Source of the DNA: a virus
Lineage: Duplodnaviria > Heunggongvirae > Uroviricota > Caudoviricetes
IMG/VR virus record: IMGVR_UViG_3300045988_149344
Length of the DNA stretch: 51,994 nt
Direction: 5' to 3' (one strand)
Of the stretch, positions 3,871 to 51,994 are shown one piece after another. Each line of letters begins with the position of its first letter. Positions within the stretch are counted from its first letter, which is position 1. Both the position numbers and the translations under genes were made by a program. The notes under the pieces are model-generated. The model was not told where the DNA came from and did not search any database. It saw only the letters and a program-made list of their open reading frames with translations.

Positions 3871-6800
3871 TCAACTCTCGCGTAGTCATTCATCAACGGA
3901 TCATCAATTGACAGTGGTACCGTGCGCATAACGCCCGGCTGAGGCGTGCTGACCTTTACGACAGTTCCCTGGCCTTTCGCCGAGTCTTTGGTGTGCTCTT
4001 CAATCCTGGCAAGCAATGAGGTCATCTGCGCAAACAGCCGCTTCGTTTCACCATCAAGTGAAACGGTATTATCAGCCAACTGCATTGTCGGCTTGGCACC
4101 GGAGCCGCCAAGGTCACTAATAACCTGTCCGTCTATCTGCATACGACCGGTTGGTTGCTGCAAATCGTTGGCGGCAGTCGTCACCTGGAACGTGGATGCT
4201 GGTTGAGGAGAATTATTTGAGCGCATTCCCCGGGCATTAATGAGTTTGTCATACAGTCCATCAATCCCCATTTGTGCGCCGAGCTGGTCAAAGTAACTTG
4301 AGTTGCTGGCCACTGGACGCGCCTCTTCAACTGGCGTCGGAGTATCAACATACACATTGCCAGCTGCTGTTGCGGTCCCATTTCCTCGTGCACGTTCTTC
4401 GAGGGTTCCCTGGACGACTTCTCGACGCATCCCCCGACCATTCATGAATTTGTTGACCAGATCGTTAACGCCAACAGCATTACCGATTTTGTCTACCAGA
4501 CCGCCCTTCTCAAACGGGCTATCACCAGGGGTAAACGCCAGGCCAGTAGACTGATCGATAACGGCGTTATCAGGCAGTGGTCCCCTCACTCCATATTGCG
4601 CCCCCCCCTGTGCTCCTGCCCCTGGTGTATAGATTTCACCACCTAAATAGCGAGCACGATGAGTATTGACCTTGATCGCGTACTCACGGTTTTCTTTCGA
4701 TAAGTCACCTGTGCCTTTTTTCCACCTATTAATAGTGCCAAACCCAGCGTTATATGCAGTGATGGCCTCGTTTAAGTCTCCATTGGCTTGCTTCAGATAC
4801 TTGCTCATGAGAAGAGCCGCAGCTTCTGCCGATTTCACAGGATCAAATGCATCCGGTTCCGATATCCCTGTCTCTTTACGAGCAATACTCGTGAACTGGA
4901 ACATCCCGAGTGCGCCACCACTTAACTTTCCATCTGGTGATCTTGTAAGCGGAGACTTTGCGTTAGGATCCCCTCCTGATTCAGTTGCAGCAATCGCGTA
5001 AAGAGTGCCTTCAGGAAGACCATATTTATTCTCTAGTTCAGCAAAATACGGAGCTAACTTATCGAGATTTGCCTTACCTTCAGCGCCAAGGCTTCCGACT
5101 TTTACATCTAAGTTGCCATTATTGTAGGTATCAGCAGCTTTCTGAATGTCATTCCCAGTGCCGGTGGTATTACGCGACGATGATGACGAGCTATTTTGTC
5201 CAATAGCTGAATCAATTTTCCGCACCGCGCTATTGCCCATTTCTACGGCATTTGCATTGATAATCTGATTGGCAGTTTCTTTAACTGTTTTATTGCTATC
5301 TTTCGCCGTGTCCAGTGCCGCATTTATCACGCGGGTAGCAATATTAGTCTGTTTAGCATCGGATTCAGTTTTAGAATCAGATGTCTCCTGGTGGCTATTA
5401 ACCGGAGCTTTTAACTCTGGAGTGATTTCTTTTGCATTAGCCTCGCCGATCGGATTGGGTATTTTTGATACAATCATTGCCGCAGGGGTATTTTTAACGG
5501 CATCAACCGCTGCATCTAATGCTTTACCGGGTAAATTTTTAACCCCATCCCAAATATTACCAGCCGCCTCTTTAATGTGTTTCCCTGGGTTCTTAATGAA
5601 ATCAATTGCACTATCAATTGCATCACTGAAAACCTGTTTCAGGTTATCAACAGTAAAGAAGTCTTTGATGGCATCCAGCTTTTCAAGCAGCTTATTAGAT
5701 GTATCGCTAAACCATGCTGAAACAGCATCACCAATCTTTGCTGTGTAATCTTCGAACTTGGTAGAAATGGTGTCGCCAAGGTTAGAAATATATGTTTCTA
5801 AGTTGGTAATCCCACTATCAATGGCCTGGGCAATACTTTCCGTCGAAAATGATTGCAACATATTGCCGATATCCTCAAATCCAAGTGATTTGAGAACCTC
5901 ACCAATGGCGCTGCTAATACCAGATACCAGTCCCCCCATATCAAGAACATTGGCTAACGTATAAGCGGCTTTTTGCTGGAATGATGGCTCTTGTCCTGAT
6001 TTAAGCCCAAACGCTCGACGTTGCGCTTCTGTATCATTCCAACCGGTTACCGCATCATAAATACCTCCAGCCACTGTGCCGACTAAGGGAATTGCGCGTA
6101 ACGCCCCTTTACCAACTGCCTTTAATCCAAATTTACCTGCTGCCCGGGCAGCCAAATCTCCACCTTCATGGGCGATAGTCTTCTTGCCACCACCGCGTAG
6201 CATTCCTACAAGTTTCTTTGCCCCCAGAGCGCCAAAAGCGAGTGCTCCAGCTTTTTTCAGCATGCCACGCCCCATTAACAACGACGCGACGCCACCGGCC
6301 CCCTTCCCTAACAGGCTAAATAGTTTGGACAGCAAGCCGCCCTTCTTTTTCCCGGTGTTTTTGGCTATCTGATCAAGGGCGCTGAGAATCTTGTCATTGC
6401 CCTCTTTAATTTCGCTGGTCTGCTCCTGAAGTTCCTGAACCGTCCGTTTTTGGGTGTTAACCTGAACGACATCGGCACTATTTTGCGATTTACGCCTAAA
6501 AAAACCTTTTCTACGGCTGTTATCGTCATTGCCACGAATCACATCGGCAATAGACTTTCTGGCACCATTAAGCGATCCACCAACTTCTTTTGATATCCCG
6601 CCAAGCTCCTTCCCTGCTGCCCACAATGGACCAGCAACGGCATAACCTAACGCATCGACGGCACGAGTCTCTGAAGGGTTACCTATGCCTTCAGCTACTT
6701 TTGACAGTTTTTTTAATAAACCTGATTCAGCATTTAGACGCTCATCATCCTCTTTGCGCCTGGCCTTTTCAGCACGTTCAGCACGGGCATCTTCCGCTGC

Positions 6801-48429: not shown

Positions 48430-48936
48430 TTGAGTATTTTCAATAAACATGCACACCAGGAACGTCCGTATATCGTCATAGTCGATATTGATGGAACAAT
48501 ATCAGAGGCAACTGAAGACAGACTGCATTTGCTTCCGCCACCAGGTAAAGGTGCATTAACAAAGGACTGGAACGAGTTTAATCTCGCCTGTGACACCGAT
48601 ACTCCCATCACTCCGGTTATTGATATGGTGCGCCAGTTATTTAACGTTTACACGGTCTGGTTTGTAACCGGGCGCTGTGAGATCGCAAGGGATAAAACAC
48701 GAGCCTGGCTGCGGAAGTACGTAACAAACGGGGCTGAGCCTTTGCTATCTATGCGTCCTGCCACCGATGACAGAAATGACGGTCCAGCAAAGATTGATCT
48801 CCTGAAGAAAATTGGTCTAAGTAAAATTGCGTTCGCGCTGGAAGATAAGATTGAAGTGGCGCGTGTTTTCAGGAGTCACGGCGTACTTACGTTAATGGTC
48901 AGGGAGTATGAAAACGCGCTTCTCCACCAACAATAA
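48430..48936 (+). CDS. HAD-superfamily phosphatase-like protein (168 aa), TTG start
   Basis: Motif I VIVDIDGTI; GAGGAGGG ribosome binding site 4-5 nt before TTG at 48430. Confidence 0.5.
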   Translation: MSIFNKHAHQERPYIVIVDIDGTISEATEDRLHLLPPPGKGALTKDWNEFNLACDTDTPITPVIDMVRQLFNVYTVWFVTGRCEIARDKTRAWLRKYVTNGAEPLLSMRPATDDRNDGPAKIDLLKKIGLSKIAFALEDKIEVARVFRSHGVLTLMVREYENALLHQQ

Positions 48937-48952
48937 TTGCTCTAATAAATAT
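48936..48952 (+). promoter_or_regulatory. C1 operator (16/17) overlapping the stop of the HAD gene
   Basis: ATTGCTCTAATAAATAT. Confidence 0.6.
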
Positions 48953-49034
48953 TGATTTTTAAAACAGAGAAAGTGAAAATAAAAACATGCCGCAAGGCGC
49001 GGCATGTATCCAATCAATCACAGGAGCTGAAAAT

Positions 49035-49121
49035 ATGAACACGGCATTCAAAATCATTATGGCCGCGATCTATTTCTGGCTGTTCTCTATCACTTTTGGC
49101 GGCATCGTCGCGCATGGGTAA
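49035..49121 (+). CDS. 28-aa hydrophobic peptide (MNTAFKIIMAAIYFWLFSITFGGIVAHG), not in ORF track
   Basis: AGGAG ribosome binding site 7 nt upstream of the ATG; single predicted TM helix; lies between a C1 operator and the next gene. Confidence 0.3.
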   Translation: MNTAFKIIMAAIYFWLFSITFGGIVAHG

Positions 49122-49130
49122 GGGGGATGC

Positions 49131-49859
49131 ATGAAAGGCGAAGTGAAAGAGCGCGGCATGATTTTCAACGATGAGATGGTCCGAGCCATCCTCGAAGGAA
49201 GGAAAACGCAGACGCGGCGGATAATGAAAAATCAGCCTGCGGAAGTTGGTCCAGAAGCACCAGTGATGGTTAGGGAAATTGGTGCAGGTTTTCAGTGGTA
49301 CGGGGCTGATGGTGTAAGCAGTGTTTTCAATTGCCCCTTTGGTATCGTCGGCGATCGAATTTGGGTTCGTGAAACATGGGCGATATTAGGCAATGAAGAT
49401 GGTTGCAGTGTGGACTGGAACGACAACCTTTGTCGTGGCGATGAGAAGAACGCAGCAAGGATTTATCGGGCCAGTTGTGAGCAAAAGCCTGGTGATTACG
49501 GTTTATGGTCGATACCCGATGATGCCGACTGGAAACCTCACACTGTGAATGAAAAGTTTGATGGTGGGTGGCGTCCATCAATTCACATGCCGCGATGGGC
49601 ATCACGCATCCTGTTGGAAATTACCAACGTGCGCGTTGAGCGGTTGAACGATATCAGCGAATGCGATGCAAGGGATGAGGGCGTTCCGCCTGCTGGAAGT
49701 TTGCTTCCTGATCACCCGGGAACATTCCTTACTCCCAAGGGGGATTTCGCAATGGCCAAGGTTGCGTTCCAGCGTCTGTGGGAATCCATCTATGGTGAAG
49801 AAAGCTGGAACGCTAATCCCTGGGTGTGGGTAATCGAGTTTAAGCGCATTCAGGAATAA
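49131..49859 (+). CDS. Conserved prophage protein, possibly ASCH-like (242 aa)
   Basis: N-terminal MIFNDEMVRAILEGRKTQTRR is a motif I associate with ASCH-type prophage proteins; weak call. Confidence 0.4.
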   Translation: MKGEVKERGMIFNDEMVRAILEGRKTQTRRIMKNQPAEVGPEAPVMVREIGAGFQWYGADGVSSVFNCPFGIVGDRIWVRETWAILGNEDGCSVDWNDNLCRGDEKNAARIYRASCEQKPGDYGLWSIPDDADWKPHTVNEKFDGGWRPSIHMPRWASRILLEITNVRVERLNDISECDARDEGVPPAGSLLPDHPGTFLTPKGDFAMAKVAFQRLWESIYGEESWNANPWVWVIEFKRIQE

Positions 49860-49942
49860 ACCGTGAGTATGCATCAAATCGTCAGTTTTTCAGGTGGACG
49901 AGCATCGGCCTGTCTCGTTCATCTGTTCGAATAGGTAGTGGC

Positions 49943-50146
49943 ATGACAATCGTAAAAACCCATACCGGCACCGTGATCACCAAAGACGGTCCGCAGGTAA
50001 AAAAACTGCACCAAACAGAGCGGATGTGGGTCGTCGGCAAAAACGAGTTTTACCACAAAGAAACTGGACGCCGCCATTTTGCAGAAAATACGCGCCGCCG
50101 ACTGCTGTTAGACACCATCAAGCCTATCGAGGTGAAGCATGTTTAA
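49943..50146 (+). CDS. Small hypothetical protein (67 aa)
   Basis: ORF overlapping the start of the next gene by 8 nt. Confidence 0.3.
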   Translation: MTIVKTHTGTVITKDGPQVKKLHQTERMWVVGKNEFYHKETGRRHFAENTRRRLLLDTIKPIEVKHV

Positions 50147-50378
50147 ACAGAACGAAAAGGCTATCGCTCAAATTGCTGATTATATCCCGCGTGCGTGCCG
50201 GGGTATGCAGTTGCAGGAAGCCAAAGCGCGCCTGGAGAAAAAAATTGCGCTCTATATTGATGACGGCTGTGATGCTGCTGTTCTTAACGCAGCGTTCGCG
50301 CCAGCTCTTAACAGTCATACGCGGGAGTCTTTTTTTTCGCGCATCGCAGCGCAGATCCGTAAAGGAGGCAACCAGTGA
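50139..50378 (+). CDS. Small hypothetical protein (79 aa)
   Basis: Ends ...QIRKGGNQ; its stop overlaps the GTG start of the next gene (GTGA). Confidence 0.35.
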   Translation: MFKQNEKAIAQIADYIPRACRGMQLQEAKARLEKKIALYIDDGCDAAVLNAAFAPALNSHTRESFFSRIAAQIRKGGNQ

Positions 50379-51100
50379 GCGAAATTAACTATAAAGAACT
50401 GCGCGAGGCGGCGAAACAGGCAACGCAAGATGAATGGGTAGCATATATTTTGCCGGGTCATAACGGCATTTATCCTGCGCGCACGTCTGAGGGTAGGCAT
50501 TGCGGATACTTTATTGACTGGCCTAGCGTCTGTCAGGGGGGGGAGAGCATCAACATGAGCATCAGAACCTACGCAGTGAATTGCAATGACGCATGGCTAA
50601 ACACCGAAGGTGATGACATCTCCGGCTCATACGTTAAGTACAAAGACCATCAGGAAGTGGTTGCCGCTCTTGAGGCCAAGTGCGCGGCGCTGGCGGCGGA
50701 GAATGAGCTGGCTCGTAAGGCAGTTCAGGCATTCTGCGATGTTGTTGGCGACAACACCGAGGTTATCGCTGAGGAGGTTGGGCGAGATGGCGTTCTGGTT
50801 ATTTTGGGGGCCATGAAGGCAACAGGAAATATTTCAGCCACCGATGCTTTTCTGGCTGAAATTCGTGCGGAAGCACGCAACGAGGGGATTAACTATACCG
50901 CCAGCCGTCTTGCTGCTGCGTTCAATCACGGATTTATCAATAAATCTTTGCGTGAAGTTTTCGACGTTACACGCATGATTTTGTCAGCGAAAGAAGAGTT
51001 GGCTAATGAACCGCATCCGATTGATGGCCTGTCCGGTGAATATGCGGAGAAATCCCTTGAAGAATGGGCGGAACAGATTCGCAAAGGAGGCAAGCAGTGA
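50375..51100 (+). CDS. Ead/Ea22-like family protein (241 aa), GTG start
   Basis: N-terminal NYKELREAAKQATQDEW resembles the (I/D)YQALREAAEKAT..W start of lambdoid Ea22-like proteins; AAGGAGG ribosome binding site. Confidence 0.5.
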   Translation: MSEINYKELREAAKQATQDEWVAYILPGHNGIYPARTSEGRHCGYFIDWPSVCQGGESINMSIRTYAVNCNDAWLNTEGDDISGSYVKYKDHQEVVAALEAKCAALAAENELARKAVQAFCDVVGDNTEVIAEEVGRDGVLVILGAMKATGNISATDAFLAEIRAEARNEGINYTASRLAAAFNHGFINKSLREVFDVTRMILSAKEELANEPHPIDGLSGEYAEKSLEEWAEQIRKGGKQ

Positions 51101-51396
51101 GTGTATATCTTATTGATAAACGTCGACGTGGGCAACAAATACCACCTGTAGGAATTCCGAATCACACATGGTTTTGCGTACTTGATATCGATGGTATGGA
51201 TGCGTTGGTTGACACTCGTCATTACTGCGATACCGCAACAGCTACTCCGGCGAAAGCAAAGAAAATGGCTGCTCTGATAGAAAACTGGACTCCACCTGAT
51301 GGTTGGTGCAATGGGAATGATCGAGATTGGCATGAAAAAATGAAGGGCTATATCTGCGATTTCTTACGTAAATGCAACGGATTCAGGGTGATGTGA
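51097..51396 (+). CDS. Small Cys-containing protein (99 aa), GTG start
   Basis: GTG at 51097 with an AAGGAGG ribosome binding site 7 nt upstream, overlapping the previous stop; the track ATG at 51064 lies inside the upstream gene. Confidence 0.4.
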   Translation: MSVYLIDKRRRGQQIPPVGIPNHTWFCVLDIDGMDALVDTRHYCDTATATPAKAKKMAALIENWTPPDGWCNGNDRDWHEKMKGYICDFLRKCNGFRVM

Positions 51397-51397
51397 C

Positions 51398-51817
51398 ATG
51401 AACAAGATTGACTATCAGGCACTGCGTGAGGCGGCAGAGAAGGCAACGTGGGGAGACTGGGACTCATATAAACCACACCGTGGCGCACGTGGTTATGAGG
51501 TCCGACTAAGTAGTCAGGCCATTGCGCAACACGTTCTGAAAAACAACGCTGAATTTATTGCTGCCTTTAATCCAAAGATTGCTTTGGCACTACTGGATGA
51601 ACGGGAAAGGAACCAGCAATACATCAAATCCCGCGACCAGGAGAACGAGGATATTGCACTAACGGTAGGGAAGTTGCGCGTTGAGCTGGAAGCAGCAAAA
51701 TCAAAACTCAACGAGCAGCGTGAGTATTACGAAGGTGTTATCTCTGATGGGAGTAAGCGCATAGCAGAGTTAGAAAGTGGTTCTCAGGCACAAAAGTTAG
51801 TTGAAGCAATCAGGTGA
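51398..51817 (+). CDS. Ead/Ea22-like family protein, C-terminally truncated by IS1 (139 aa)
   Basis: N-terminus MNKIDYQALREAAEKATWGDW; the stop codon TGA (51815-51817) lies inside the IS1 terminal inverted repeat. Confidence 0.5.
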   Translation: MNKIDYQALREAAEKATWGDWDSYKPHRGARGYEVRLSSQAIAQHVLKNNAEFIAAFNPKIALALLDERERNQQYIKSRDQENEDIALTVGKLRVELEAAKSKLNEQREYYEGVISDGSKRIAELESGSQAQKLVEAIR

Positions 51818-51994
51818 TGCTGCCAACTTACTGATTTAGTGTATGATGGTGTTTTTGAGGTGCTCCAGTGGCTTCTGTTTCTATCAGCTGTCCCTCCTGT
51901 TCAGCTACTGACGGGGTGGTGCGTAACGGCAAAAGCACCGCCGGACATCAGCGCTATCTCTGCTCTCACTGCCGTAAAACATGGCAACTGCAGT
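51813..51994 (+). mobile_element. IS1 insertion sequence, left end (element continues beyond window)
   Basis: Exact IS1 terminal sequence GGTGATGCTGCCAACTTACTGATTTAGTGTATGATGGTGTTTTTGAGGTGCTCCAGTGGCTTCTG... Confidence 0.9.
51868..51994 (+). CDS. insA: IS1 InsA, N-terminal part (partial at window edge)
   Basis: GTG start; translation [42 protein letters not shown]. Confidence 0.85.

What the first reader, a model, noticed from the sequence alone, without database searches (positions are those of the whole stretch)
50340..51110. Repeated gene-junction sequence AAAGGAGGCAA(C/G)CAGTGAG marking cassette boundaries in an Ea22-like region
The last codons of two consecutive genes (...QIRKGGNQ and ...QIRKGGKQ) plus the RBS and GTG start of the following gene are nearly identical at 50361-50380 and 51083-51102. 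Conserved junctions of this kind are where lambdoid phages exchange accessory cassettes; two Ea22-like paralogues are present, a gene family I associate with lambdoid rather than P1-type phages.
Basis: seen in the sequence. Interest (0 to 1): 0.4.

Follow-up and report, generated by a model that had tools for sequence, protein, structure and literature searches.

The report
Shared gene-junction linker in phage cassettes
The repeated sequence is real: it is a short adaptor, widespread in E. coli temperate phages, that holds one gene's last codons, the next gene's ribosome-binding site and an overlapping stop/start, and whole accessory genes have been swapped at it; the principle is known, so this is a clear example, not a new mechanism.

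Summary
**Observation confirmed.** AAAGGAGGCAA(C/G)CAGTGAG occurs only at 50361-50379 and 51083-51101 (0.01 expected by chance). The repeat extends to 28 nt (25/28 identical) and is part of a ~33-nt linker.

**What it is.** The linker encodes ..A-[A/E]-Q-I-R-K-G-G-[N/K]-Q-stop. It contains a perfect AAGGAGG Shine-Dalgarno 6 nt before a GTG start that overlaps the TGA stop (GTGA).

**Distribution.**
- It is present in HK620 (hkaH|hkaG) and in Stx phages.
- The junction island 50340-50432, which also includes the Ea22 head, hits 586 of 5,426 complete E. coli genomes.
- It joins at least 7 upstream and at least 13 downstream gene groups in at least 26 combinations.

**Evidence for exchange.**
- Between unrelated contexts, identity is confined to about -37..+4, or to about +50 when the next gene is Ea22-like.
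- 72 of 107 contexts are mosaic.
- A three-way alignment shows a crossover inside the shared core that adds or removes a 1,018-bp two-gene cassette.

**Context.** The array is a lambdoid-derived insert of about 4.7 kb, measured in an intact relative, in the C1-controlled pmgT operon of a P1-like phage-plasmid. P1 itself lacks it.

**Mechanism (inferred).** The linker is a portable translational-coupling site that also serves as a homology patch for cassette exchange.

**Novelty.** This is an instance of the known "boundary sequence" model. A by-product is that the published "+GE" tail of Ea22 proteins is likewise RBS-encoded.

The parts
50346..50378 (+). Junction linker copy 1: GCA GCG CAG ATC CGT AAA GGA GGC AAC CAG TGA. 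It holds the last 10 codons and stop of the 79-aa gene, the SD AAGGAGG at 50362-50368, and the GTG start of the next gene at 50375-50377, which overlaps the TGA at 50376-50378.
51068..51100 (+). Junction linker copy 2: GCG GAA CAG ATT CGC AAA GGA GGC AAG CAG TGA. It holds the last 10 codons and stop of Ea22-like gene 1, the SD AAGGAGG at 51084-51090, and the GTG start of the DUF7739 gene at 51097-51099.
50139..50378 (+). 79-aa gene with no Pfam family, upstream partner of copy 1. Homologues in Klebsiella and Salmonella prophages carry other C-terminal tails and other downstream genes.
50375..51100 (+). Ea22-like gene 1 (241 aa): PF13935 over residues 2-133, plus a C-terminal domain of the '..SLEEWAEQIRKGG' type. 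It is itself mosaic: the last ~270 nt are 97-100% identical to the pE2855-2 gene, while the middle is ~50% identical.
50376..50447 (+). Conserved Ea22 'head' (MSEINYKELREAAKQAT..). It extends the conserved island downstream of copy 1 and is 71% identical to the head of gene 2.
   Evidence: (D1)
51097..51396 (+). DUF7739 gene (99 aa) with a GTG start inside copy 2.
51398..51812 (+). Ea22-like gene 2 (PF13935), preceded by a different junction and truncated after codon 138 by IS1. The intact version in pCREC-629_2 is 185 aa and ends ..IKGE*.
51399..51470 (+). Head of Ea22-like gene 2, the second arm of the head repeat. Homology to phage PA2 stops in head 1 (50406) and resumes in head 2 (51399).
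49826..51812 (+). The part visible in the window of a lambdoid-derived insert relative to P1. The insertion point is P1 coordinate 85182, inside pmgT. The insert is about 4.7 kb in the intact relative.
48936..48952 (+). P1 C1-repressor operator (homologue of Op88/OpmgT) ahead of the operon that now carries the array. This is context for expression.

Best explanation
The repeat is a ~33-nt inter-cistronic linker used throughout the early accessory ('ea'/exo-xis-type) gene arrays of enterobacterial temperate phages. It has two functions.

(1) Expression. The last codons of the upstream gene (R-K-G-G-N/K/S-Q) spell a perfect Shine-Dalgarno AAGGAGG. Six bases later comes a GTG start that overlaps the TGA stop. 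Whatever cassette follows therefore receives a ready-made, translationally coupled initiation site. The K-G-G tail is largely a by-product of the SD being read in frame.

(2) Evolution. The same 21-33 nt recur at several boundaries of one operon and in many co-resident prophages. Where the next gene is Ea22-like, about 50 nt more (MSxI[N/D]YQALREAAE) are shared. This gives a homology patch at which RecA or phage recombinases can cross over in register. Whole genes are then inserted, deleted or replaced without damaging either reading frame or expression.

In this window the array arrived as a lambdoid-derived insert in the C1-repressed pmgT operon of a P1-like phage-plasmid.

Shown here: the sequence anatomy, its distribution, the combinatorial partners, and the crossover positions. 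Inferred: translational coupling, and homology-driven (rather than illegitimate) recombination.
For: **Non-chance repeat.**

**Anatomy.** SD AAGGAGG, a 6-nt spacer and the GTGA overlap are present at both copies and at three boundaries in pE2855-2.

**Distribution.**
- 284 phage records carry the junction island 50340-50432, which also includes the Ea22 head. They include Stx phages, HK-type phages and ST104.
- HK620 hkaH|hkaG has the canonical form and P22 eaE|orf45 a degenerate one.
- The same island hits 586 of 5,426 complete E. coli genomes.

**Promiscuity.** 128 instances join at least 7 upstream and at least 13 downstream groups in at least 26 combinations.

**Boundaries.**
- With the same upstream family and a different downstream gene, identity is ~0.9 up to +4 and then ~0.3.
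- With different upstream families it rises only from about -36.
- Tract ends cluster at -37..-15 and +4..+53, and 72 of 107 contexts are mosaic.

**Crossover.** The three-way alignment places the switch within the shared core, flanking a 1,018-bp two-gene cassette.

**Nucleotide-level constraint.**
- In a scan that allowed every synonymous codon, Gly1 is GGA in 23/23 distinct 30-mers. GGA is, to my knowledge, a rare E. coli codon.
- Lys is AAA in 22/23 and Gly2 is GGC in 21/23.
- The Ala and Leu/Ile codons just upstream use 4-5 codons each.
- Variants keep the SD, spacing and GTGA while changing the amino acids: HQGGIQ, RKGADK, AGGNQ, TGGNQ, and MKEGNQ with the SD shifted by 1 nt.

**Tail not tied to the upstream protein.**
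- DUF2737 proteins end RSGKK or RKGGNQ depending on the next gene.
- Homologues of the 79-aa protein in Klebsiella and Salmonella have unrelated tails with their own SD and ATGA or TAATG overlaps.

**General rule in the family.** In 144 distinct Ea22-like ORFs nearly every recurrent C-terminus spells an SD for the next gene: IKGE = AAAGGAGAGTGAtATG in 76, and also KGGE, NGGE, QEVK.

**Operon context.** No consensus promoter and no strong terminator was found inside the array.
Against: - Nothing was measured: neither coupling nor recombination at the site has been tested experimentally.
- The main sample was retrieved with the junction pattern itself, so positions -17..+3 are identical by construction. 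The synonymous-codon scan mixes loci from both scans.
- The copies share ancestry, so codon invariance is not a set of independent observations.
- Mosaic boundaries at gene ends are also expected if recombination is illegitimate and selection keeps only intact genes.
- By my recollection, 21-33 nt is near the lower limit for efficient RecA-dependent exchange.
- The five codons before R-K-G-G keep their amino acids (hydrophobic-x-A-[Q/E]-[L/I]) while third positions differ between subtypes. This hints at some protein-level constraint that the model does not explain.
Confidence: 0.75

Rival explanations
1. It is only a ribosome-binding site with a stop/start overlap. The copies are alike because strong SDs look alike and because of common descent. 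Cassette boundaries fall there simply because only recombinants with intact genes survive, after illegitimate recombination; the homology plays no part.
For: The SD, spacing and overlap are the best-conserved features. Other junction types in the same arrays also embed SDs. The Hendrix-type illegitimate-recombination model is established in the literature (quoted in PMC3233612).
Against: Identity extends beyond what an SD needs. The spacer GCAACCAGTGA and 12-15 nt upstream are shared exactly by unrelated C-terminal domains. The crossover in the three-way alignment lies inside the shared core, not at an arbitrary point. Tract ends spread across the conserved island, as expected for homologous exchange.
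Confidence: 0.15
2. The conserved element is a functional C-terminal peptide (..FAAQLRKGGNQ), such as a docking or degradation tag shared by many accessory proteins. On this view the DNA identity is secondary.
For: Amino acids of the five codons before RKGG are kept while third positions differ between subtypes. The two window copies differ only at the third positions of three codons: ATC/ATT and CGT/CGC are synonymous, and AAC/AAG changes N to K.
Against: - Homologous proteins carry quite different tails when the next gene differs.
- Variants change the residues but keep the SD and spacing.
- The motif is always at the extreme C-terminus, abutting a start codon.
- GGA is used in 23/23 distinct 30-mers.
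- The motif occurs on proteins with no other similarity.
Confidence: 0.07
3. It is a structured RNA signal or a site-specific recombination site (an attC-like cassette site).
For: It recurs at cassette boundaries in an array, which superficially resembles integron cassettes.
Against: - Folding energies are not better than shuffles at either window copy (z = +0.5 and +0.3); the best of the four junctions folded is HK620's at z = -1.8.
- There is no Rfam match at or near either junction; the only hit in 48800-51994 is a far-sub-threshold GcvB match at 48979-49062.
- I saw no inverted-repeat symmetry in the sequence.
- Exchange end-points are spread over about 90 nt instead of one fixed position.
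- No integrase was seen next to the arrays in the annotated regions examined.
Confidence: 0.02
4. It is a chance resemblance, or a local duplication private to this genome.
For: There are only two copies in the window.
Against: 0.01 are expected by chance. The two copies belong to different subtypes, and each has exact counterparts in many other phages and plasmids.
Confidence: 0.01

Closest known systems
Conserved 'boundary' or 'linker' sequences of lambdoid phages (modular-evolution model of Susskind & Botstein 1978; Clark et al. 2001 on HK620, as cited in PMC3233612)
   Same: It is a short sequence shared at gene boundaries between otherwise unrelated modules, proposed as a target for homologous recombination. 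The same junction is present in HK620 itself, between hkaH and hkaG.
   Different: I could not read Clark et al. 2001, so I cannot say whether this exact sequence was described. No held paper contains the DNA or peptide string. Here the linker is also documented inside a P1-like phage-plasmid, with counts of partners and a mapped crossover.
Translationally coupled overlapping genes (ATGA/GTGA overlaps with the SD inside the upstream coding sequence), common in phage operons such as the lambda/P22 nin and ea regions
   Same: It has a 4-nt stop/start overlap and an SD within the last codons of the upstream gene.
   Different: Here one particular SD-spacer-start string is reused almost verbatim in front of many unrelated genes. 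The weak GTG start is kept in 22 of 23 distinct variants, although CAA-TGA would give ATG with the same peptide.
The '+GE' C-terminal motif of Ea22 proteins (Dydecka et al. 2020, PMC7093339: 'significance unknown')
   Same: It is a conserved C-terminal tail on otherwise divergent Ea22 C-terminal domains.
   Different: It is a different junction type (AAAGGAGAGTGAtATG, K-G-E-stop). The data here indicate it is likewise the next gene's SD read in frame. The window's own copy of it is lost to IS1.
Mosaic Ea22 proteins (Donaldson and co-workers 2024, PMC10834534)
   Same: They share an N-terminal segment and coiled coil with interchangeable C-terminal domains. Window gene 1 shows the same intragenic mosaicism.
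   Different: That work treats the protein. The linker at the gene boundary and its role in expression and exchange are not discussed in the passages I read.
Integron gene cassettes with attC sites
   Same: They form arrays of promoterless accessory genes with a recurring boundary element.
   Different: The linker has no imperfect palindrome, no dedicated integrase and no fixed crossover point. It lies inside coding sequence and works (by inference) through general homologous recombination.

Membership tests
Ead/Ea22-like protein family (Pfam PF13935) | Significant match to the Ead_Ea22 profile above the gathering score | tested here: met
   50375-51100: 61.8 bits, E=1.3e-16. 51398-51817: 129.9 bits, E=1.3e-37. 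The cut-off is 27 bits.
Conserved boundary (linker) sequence for modular exchange | A short sequence conserved at a gene boundary while both flanks are unrelated | tested here: met
   For pairs with different families on both sides, flanks are 0.2-0.3 identical. Identity rises only from about -36 to +4. Positions -17..+3 were fixed by the search pattern.
Conserved boundary (linker) sequence for modular exchange | Recurs at several boundaries of one genome and in many genomes with different partners | tested here: met
   2 copies in the window and 3 in pE2855-2. At least 120 viral contigs, and at least 26 upstream/downstream combinations.
Conserved boundary (linker) sequence for modular exchange | Mosaic breakpoints map into the shared sequence | tested here: met
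   The three-way alignment places the switch inside TTCGCAAAGGAGGCA. Tract ends lie at -37..-15 and +4..+53, and 72 of 107 contexts are mosaic.
Conserved boundary (linker) sequence for modular exchange | Recombination at the site depends on the homology and on a recombinase | not testable with these tools
   Needs genetic crosses.
Translationally coupled overlapping cistrons | Stop and start codons overlap, with an SD at functional spacing inside the upstream gene | tested here: met
   GTGA overlap, with AAGGAGG ending 6 nt before the GTG, at both copies. PGAP calls the same starts.
Translationally coupled overlapping cistrons | Downstream translation depends on upstream translation | not testable with these tools
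   No SD-occluding structure is predicted. Coupling would therefore be by re-initiation or proximity, which was not measured.
Structured RNA element / Rfam family | Stable or covarying secondary structure, or a match to a curated model | tested here: not met
   z-scores are +0.51, +0.26, -0.84 and -1.81. There is no Rfam match at or near the junction.
P1 (Punavirus) core genome | The region is present in reference phage P1 | tested here: not met
   P1 homology ends at window 49825 (P1 85182) and resumes after a 4.7-kb insert in the relative. P1 70,000-94,800 has no junction and no AAAGGAGG.

The most novel reading that the evidence does not exclude
The linker is not just a passively inherited RBS. 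It is a maintained 'universal adaptor': a sequence kept nearly invariant across lambdoid phages and P1-like phage-plasmids because it lets phage recombinases plug in expression-ready accessory genes, in frame and translationally coupled. These genes may be host-takeover or anti-defence functions. This would be a homology-based counterpart of the integron cassette system. It would give the long-debated Susskind-Botstein linker hypothesis a concrete and experimentally tractable locus. A weaker variant is that the 11-residue tail it appends also has a function of its own.
Probability: 0.15. Interest if true: 0.6.

Novelty: new member of a known kind. Interest (0 to 1): 0.3.

Why it matters
Whether phage mosaicism arises at conserved linker sequences or by illegitimate recombination followed by selection is an old, unsettled question. 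This junction is an unusually clean natural case:
- one ~33-nt string joins dozens of gene combinations;
- it is present in about a tenth of complete E. coli genomes, counted by its 93-nt island;
- crossovers can be mapped within it.

It could therefore be used directly in crosses and reporter assays.

It also has practical uses:
- It marks true GTG starts and cassette limits in poorly annotated early regions.
- It explains conserved C-terminal tails (RKGGNQ, and the published '+GE') as RBS by-products, so they need not be treated as protein motifs.
- It documents gene flow from lambdoid phages into a C1-controlled operon of P1-like phage-plasmids.

Tried and rejected
- **RNA structure.** Four junctions folded no better than shuffles, and Rfam at E<=1 gave nothing at or near the junction.
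- **Programmed frameshift or read-through fusion.** The downstream frame is -1 relative to the upstream one, but by inspection of the sequence there is no slippery site, and CAG-to-CCA re-pairing is poor. I did not pursue this.
- **Site-specific recombination site.** There is no symmetry, no adjacent integrase, and the end-points are dispersed.
- **Local duplication or chance.** Rejected.
- **Scan of one genome per species.** It gave 20 hits. Only 4 are the real junction: two Escherichia, and two short contigs binned as Sutterella and Actinomycetes. The rest are out-of-frame look-alikes. About 9 chance hits are expected from my own rough calculation. The scan therefore says little beyond a narrow enterobacterial range.
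- **An inference of mine that failed.** From protein tails such as ..LHEGADK, I guessed that K/E/Q variation kept xAA-GGA, and hence AAGGAG. The Klebsiella DNA is in fact CAT GAG GGG GCC GAC AAA TGA: a different SD-like run with an ATGA overlap. I dropped that argument.
- **Literature.** Clark et al. 2001 is not held. No held paper contains RKGGNQ or the DNA string.
- **Structure prediction.** I did not run it. The tail question was answered more directly by homologues with other tails.
Full report
**1. The observation**

Even with three mismatches allowed they are the only matches on either strand of the window, against 0.01 expected from shuffles. The repeat extends to 28 nt at 25/28 identity (50352-50379 vs 51074-51101).

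In frame, gene 50139-50378 (79 aa) ends ..AAQIRKGGNQ-TGA and gene 50375-51100 (241 aa) ends ..AEQIRKGGKQ-TGA. In both, AAA-GGA-GG spells AAGGAGG, and six bases later a GTG (50375; 51097) overlaps the TGA. RefSeq annotation of a 99.9%-identical plasmid uses exactly these starts.

Pfam confirms two Ead/Ea22-like genes, 50375-51100 and 51398-51817. It assigns the gene between them to DUF7739. The 79-aa and 67-aa genes have no family.

**2. Where the window comes from**

The region is 99.9% identical to about 25 non-mobilizable plasmids of roughly 91-187 kb (most 94-100 kb). The one examined in detail is typed IncY. It is also 99.8% identical to phage vB_EcoM-813R1, a Punavirus.
- The neighbourhood carries P1 genes: hot, humD, phd/doc, pacAB, c1, cre and ref.
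- Window 46000-49825 is 98.5% identical to P1 81357-85182, which covers pmgS, pap and pmgT.
- The pap-pmgT spacer, aligned separately and ~98% identical, contains the C1 operator Op88 at 48936-48952.
- Homology stops at 49825. In the intact relative pCREC-629_2, P1 homology resumes at the same P1 coordinate (85182) after 4.7 kb.

The Ea22-like array is therefore an insert in the C1-controlled pmgT operon. The examined part of P1 (70,000-94,800) contains neither the junction nor any AAAGGAGG.

The insert is lambdoid in origin. Window 49926-50406 is 92.7% identical to Stx2a phage PA2, where the order is exonuclease - SSB - ... - PAPS reductase - 67 aa - 79 aa - Ea22-like.

**3. How widespread the junction is**
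- The 93-nt island around copy 1 (50340-50432, which includes the Ea22 head) is found in 284 phage records. These include Stx1/Stx2 phages, HK542/HK446, ST104 and phiV10.
- By megablast, the island is in 586 of 5,426 complete E. coli genomes: 516 chromosomal and 145 plasmid places.
- Lambda matches only from the GTG onward, so it has the Ea22 head without this linker.
- HK620 has the canonical form between hkaH (..FADQLRKGGSQ*) and the Ea22-like hkaG. P22 has a degenerate form between eaE (..AAQLRKGVQS*) and orf45.
- In one genome per species, only Escherichia and two short, probably misbinned contigs carry it. The other 16 hits are out-of-frame look-alikes.

**4. What flanks it**

In 128 instances, the upstream C-terminal regions fall into at least 7 single-linkage groups, with at least 19 different 25-residue tails. 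The downstream genes fall into at least 13 groups. These include Ea22-like in 79 instances, DUF7739 in 13, a PAPS-reductase-like gene, a possible methyltransferase (judged from its N-terminal sequence only) and several unknowns. There are at least 26 combinations.

The identity profiles are as follows:

| Pair type | Identity profile |
|---|---|
| Unrelated on both sides | 0.2-0.3 in the flanks, rising only from about -36 to +4 relative to the GTG |
| Same upstream family, different downstream gene | ~0.9 up to +4, then ~0.3 |
| Different upstream families, both downstream genes Ea22-like | High from about -18 to about +45 |

The positions fixed by the search pattern (-17..+3) carry no information. 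The edges do.

Many unrelated C-terminal domains share GCC GCC CAG CTT CGC AAA GGA GGC AAC CAG TGA exactly, so the linker is about 33 nt long. The window's two copies are rarer subtypes (..CAG ATC CGT.. and ..CAG ATT CGC..).

**5. Evidence for exchange at the junction**

Plasmid pE2855-2 has three copies and, relative to the window, an extra DUF4752 + 244-aa gene pair (1,018 bp) lying between two of them.

Aligned on the GTG, the window's copy 2 is identical to the left pE2855-2 copy upstream (59/60 over the six 10-nt bins up to -11). It matches the right copy downstream (47/50 over the five bins from 0 to +49). The switch lies inside the shared TTCGCAAAGGAGGCA. This is the footprint of a homologous crossover between linker copies, in one direction or the other.

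More broadly, 72 of 107 unique 280-nt contexts share at least 93% identity upstream with one partner whose downstream is unrelated, and downstream with another partner whose upstream is unrelated. The ends of the shared tracts fall at -37..-15 and +4..+53.

The Ea22 heads are used in the same way. Homology to PA2 stops at 50406 in head 1 and resumes at 51399 in head 2, bracketing the body of gene 1, copy 2 and DUF7739.

Only 26 of 502 plasmid records that match the region cover at least 80% of it, so the array is highly variable among relatives.

**6. Evidence that the 3' half is constrained as nucleic acid**

It returned 23 distinct 30-mers:

| Codon position | Usage |
|---|---|
| Gly1 | GGA 23/23 |
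| Lys | AAA 22/23 |
| Gly2 | GGC 21/23 |
| Gln | CAG 22/23 |
| Ala (upstream) | 4 different codons |
| Leu/Ile (upstream) | 5 different codons |

Shared ancestry and overlap with the first sample weaken this as a statistic, but the contrast within the same molecules is clear.

Other lines of evidence agree:
- Variant junctions in front of Ea22 heads keep the SD plus GGCAACCAGTGA while encoding AGGNQ, TGGNQ or, with the SD shifted by one base, MKEGNQ.
- Within single upstream families the tail changes while an SD-like core, the spacing and the GTGA stay: HQGGIQ, RKGADK, and RKGSSQ with a weakened AAGGAAG.
- DUF2737 proteins end RSGKK (ATGA overlap) before hkaH-type genes and RKGGNQ before others.
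- Homologues of the 79-aa protein from Klebsiella and Salmonella prophages have unrelated tails with their own SD-like runs and ATGA/TAATG overlaps.

The last 4-6 residues are thus not a requirement of the upstream proteins.

No stable RNA structure and no Rfam family is associated with the junction. No consensus promoter and no strong terminator lies inside the array.

**7. A residue of protein-level signal**

Between linker subtypes, the five codons before R-K-G-G keep hydrophobic-x-A-[Q/E]-[L/I] while third positions differ. I read this as the end of a terminal helix that several C-terminal domain families share or tolerate. I cannot exclude a function for it.

**8. Mechanism**

My best reading, at about 0.75 confidence, is a portable translational-coupling site that also acts as the homology patch for in-register cassette exchange.
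- The SD/RBS part rests on textbook knowledge of SD-anti-SD pairing and stop/start overlaps, plus the codon evidence above.
- The recombination part rests on the mapped crossover and the breakpoint distribution.
- Neither part has been measured.

The main rival is an RBS only, with boundaries set by selection after illegitimate recombination. I give it about 0.15. It cannot be excluded without crosses.

**9. Relation to what is known**

The idea of short conserved boundary sequences as recombination targets in lambdoid phages goes back to Susskind & Botstein (1978) and Clark et al. (2001, HK620), as summarised in PMC3233612. I could not read Clark et al., and HK620 carries this very junction, so it may already have been listed there. 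No held paper contains the sequence or the peptide.

Ea22 mosaicism is published (PMC10834534). Dydecka et al. (PMC7093339) noted that Ea22 proteins end in a '+GE' tripeptide of unknown significance. In the loci collected here, 76 of 144 distinct Ea22-like ORFs end IKGE, encoded by AAAGGAGAGTGAtATG. Nearly all the other recurrent tails (KGGE, NGGE, GKGEAS, QEVK, QEVN) likewise spell an SD just before the next start. The simplest explanation of '+GE' is therefore the same as for RKGGNQ.

**10. Verdict**

It is a well-documented instance of a known kind of feature, so I score its interest as modest (0.3). Three points add some value beyond the known model:
- the linker's breadth and its combinatorics;
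- its transfer into a P1-like backbone;
- the RBS explanation for conserved Ea22 C-terminal tails.

Noticed in passing
window 51813-51994: I recognise this as the left end of IS1 (GGTGATGCTGCCAACTTACTGATTTAGTG..); no IS database was searched. It interrupts Ea22-like gene 2 after codon 138. Relatives without the IS have a 185-aa gene ending ..IKGE*, and their match to the window ends exactly at 51812.
   Followed up: partly
window 49825/49826 (P1 coordinate 85182): This is a sharp end of P1 homology inside pmgT. Everything from 49826 onward belongs to a lambdoid-derived insert that measures ~4.7 kb in the intact relative pCREC-629_2. The pmgT-like ORF (49131-59859 in part) ends at 49859, 34 nt into the insert.
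   Followed up: yes
window 49863-49934: A 23-codon remnant (VSMHQIVSFSGGRASACLVHLFE*) contains what looks like the PP-loop motif of a PAPS-reductase-like gene. In phage PA2 a PAPS-reductase gene of ~0.8 kb occupies this position. The deletion end-points share TTCGAA.
   Followed up: partly
L001 ~6040-6060; L002 ~5962-5982; L178 (HK620) hkaG/hkaF; L179 (P22) eaD/eaI: A second recurrent junction type, AAAGGAGAGTGA(t/g)ATG, makes Ea22-like proteins end ..KGE*. This matches the '+GE motif of unknown significance' reported for Ea22 (PMC7093339). It looks like the next gene's SD read in frame; 76 of 144 Ea22-like ORFs have it.
   Followed up: partly
window ~50825-50830, inside Ea22-like gene 1: There is an intragenic mosaic breakpoint. 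Against the pE2855-2 gene, the first 90 nt are 73% identical, the middle is ~45-60%, and the last ~270 nt are 97-100%. BLAST segment starts from other loci also cluster at 50830.
   Followed up: partly
window 50238-50244 (A7) and 50330-50337 (T8), in the 79-aa gene: Two homopolymer runs are present. Many database proteins of this family switch to another reading frame at the A run, and some return at the T run. One such cluster is seen on 42 contigs. Phage 813R1 has A6 and T6 here. These may be long-read homopolymer errors or real length variation.
   Followed up: partly
window 12011, 14068, 29215, 32737, 32748, 43171, 46795, 46844, 48936: There are nine matches (up to 3 mismatches) to ATTGCTCTAATAAATTT, which I recall as the 17-bp P1 C1 operator consensus, against 0.27 expected. 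Those at 46795, 46844 and 48936 lie where the P1 record annotates Op86a/b and Op88.
   Followed up: partly
L183, L187, L192, L195, L200, L202 (Alphaproteobacteria/proteobacteria MAGs); L189, L191, L194, L199 (Arthrobacter, Curtobacterium): The junction pattern also hits two unrelated groups of genomes, each at a conserved context of its own (..WRKGGKQ*|VNDVSPPNTVWTPDGE.. and ..LTGSRKGGTQ*|VKRQKYHYGEHPSQW..). The upstream frame there has stops, so these look like ordinary leader SD + GTG starts of conserved genes, not the phage linker.
   Followed up: no
window 51394-51400: A third junction type (..TTCAGGGTGATGTGAcATG) links DUF7739 to Ea22-like gene 2. It recurs in at least 15 other loci with the same two partners, so this pair seems to travel together.
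   Followed up: no
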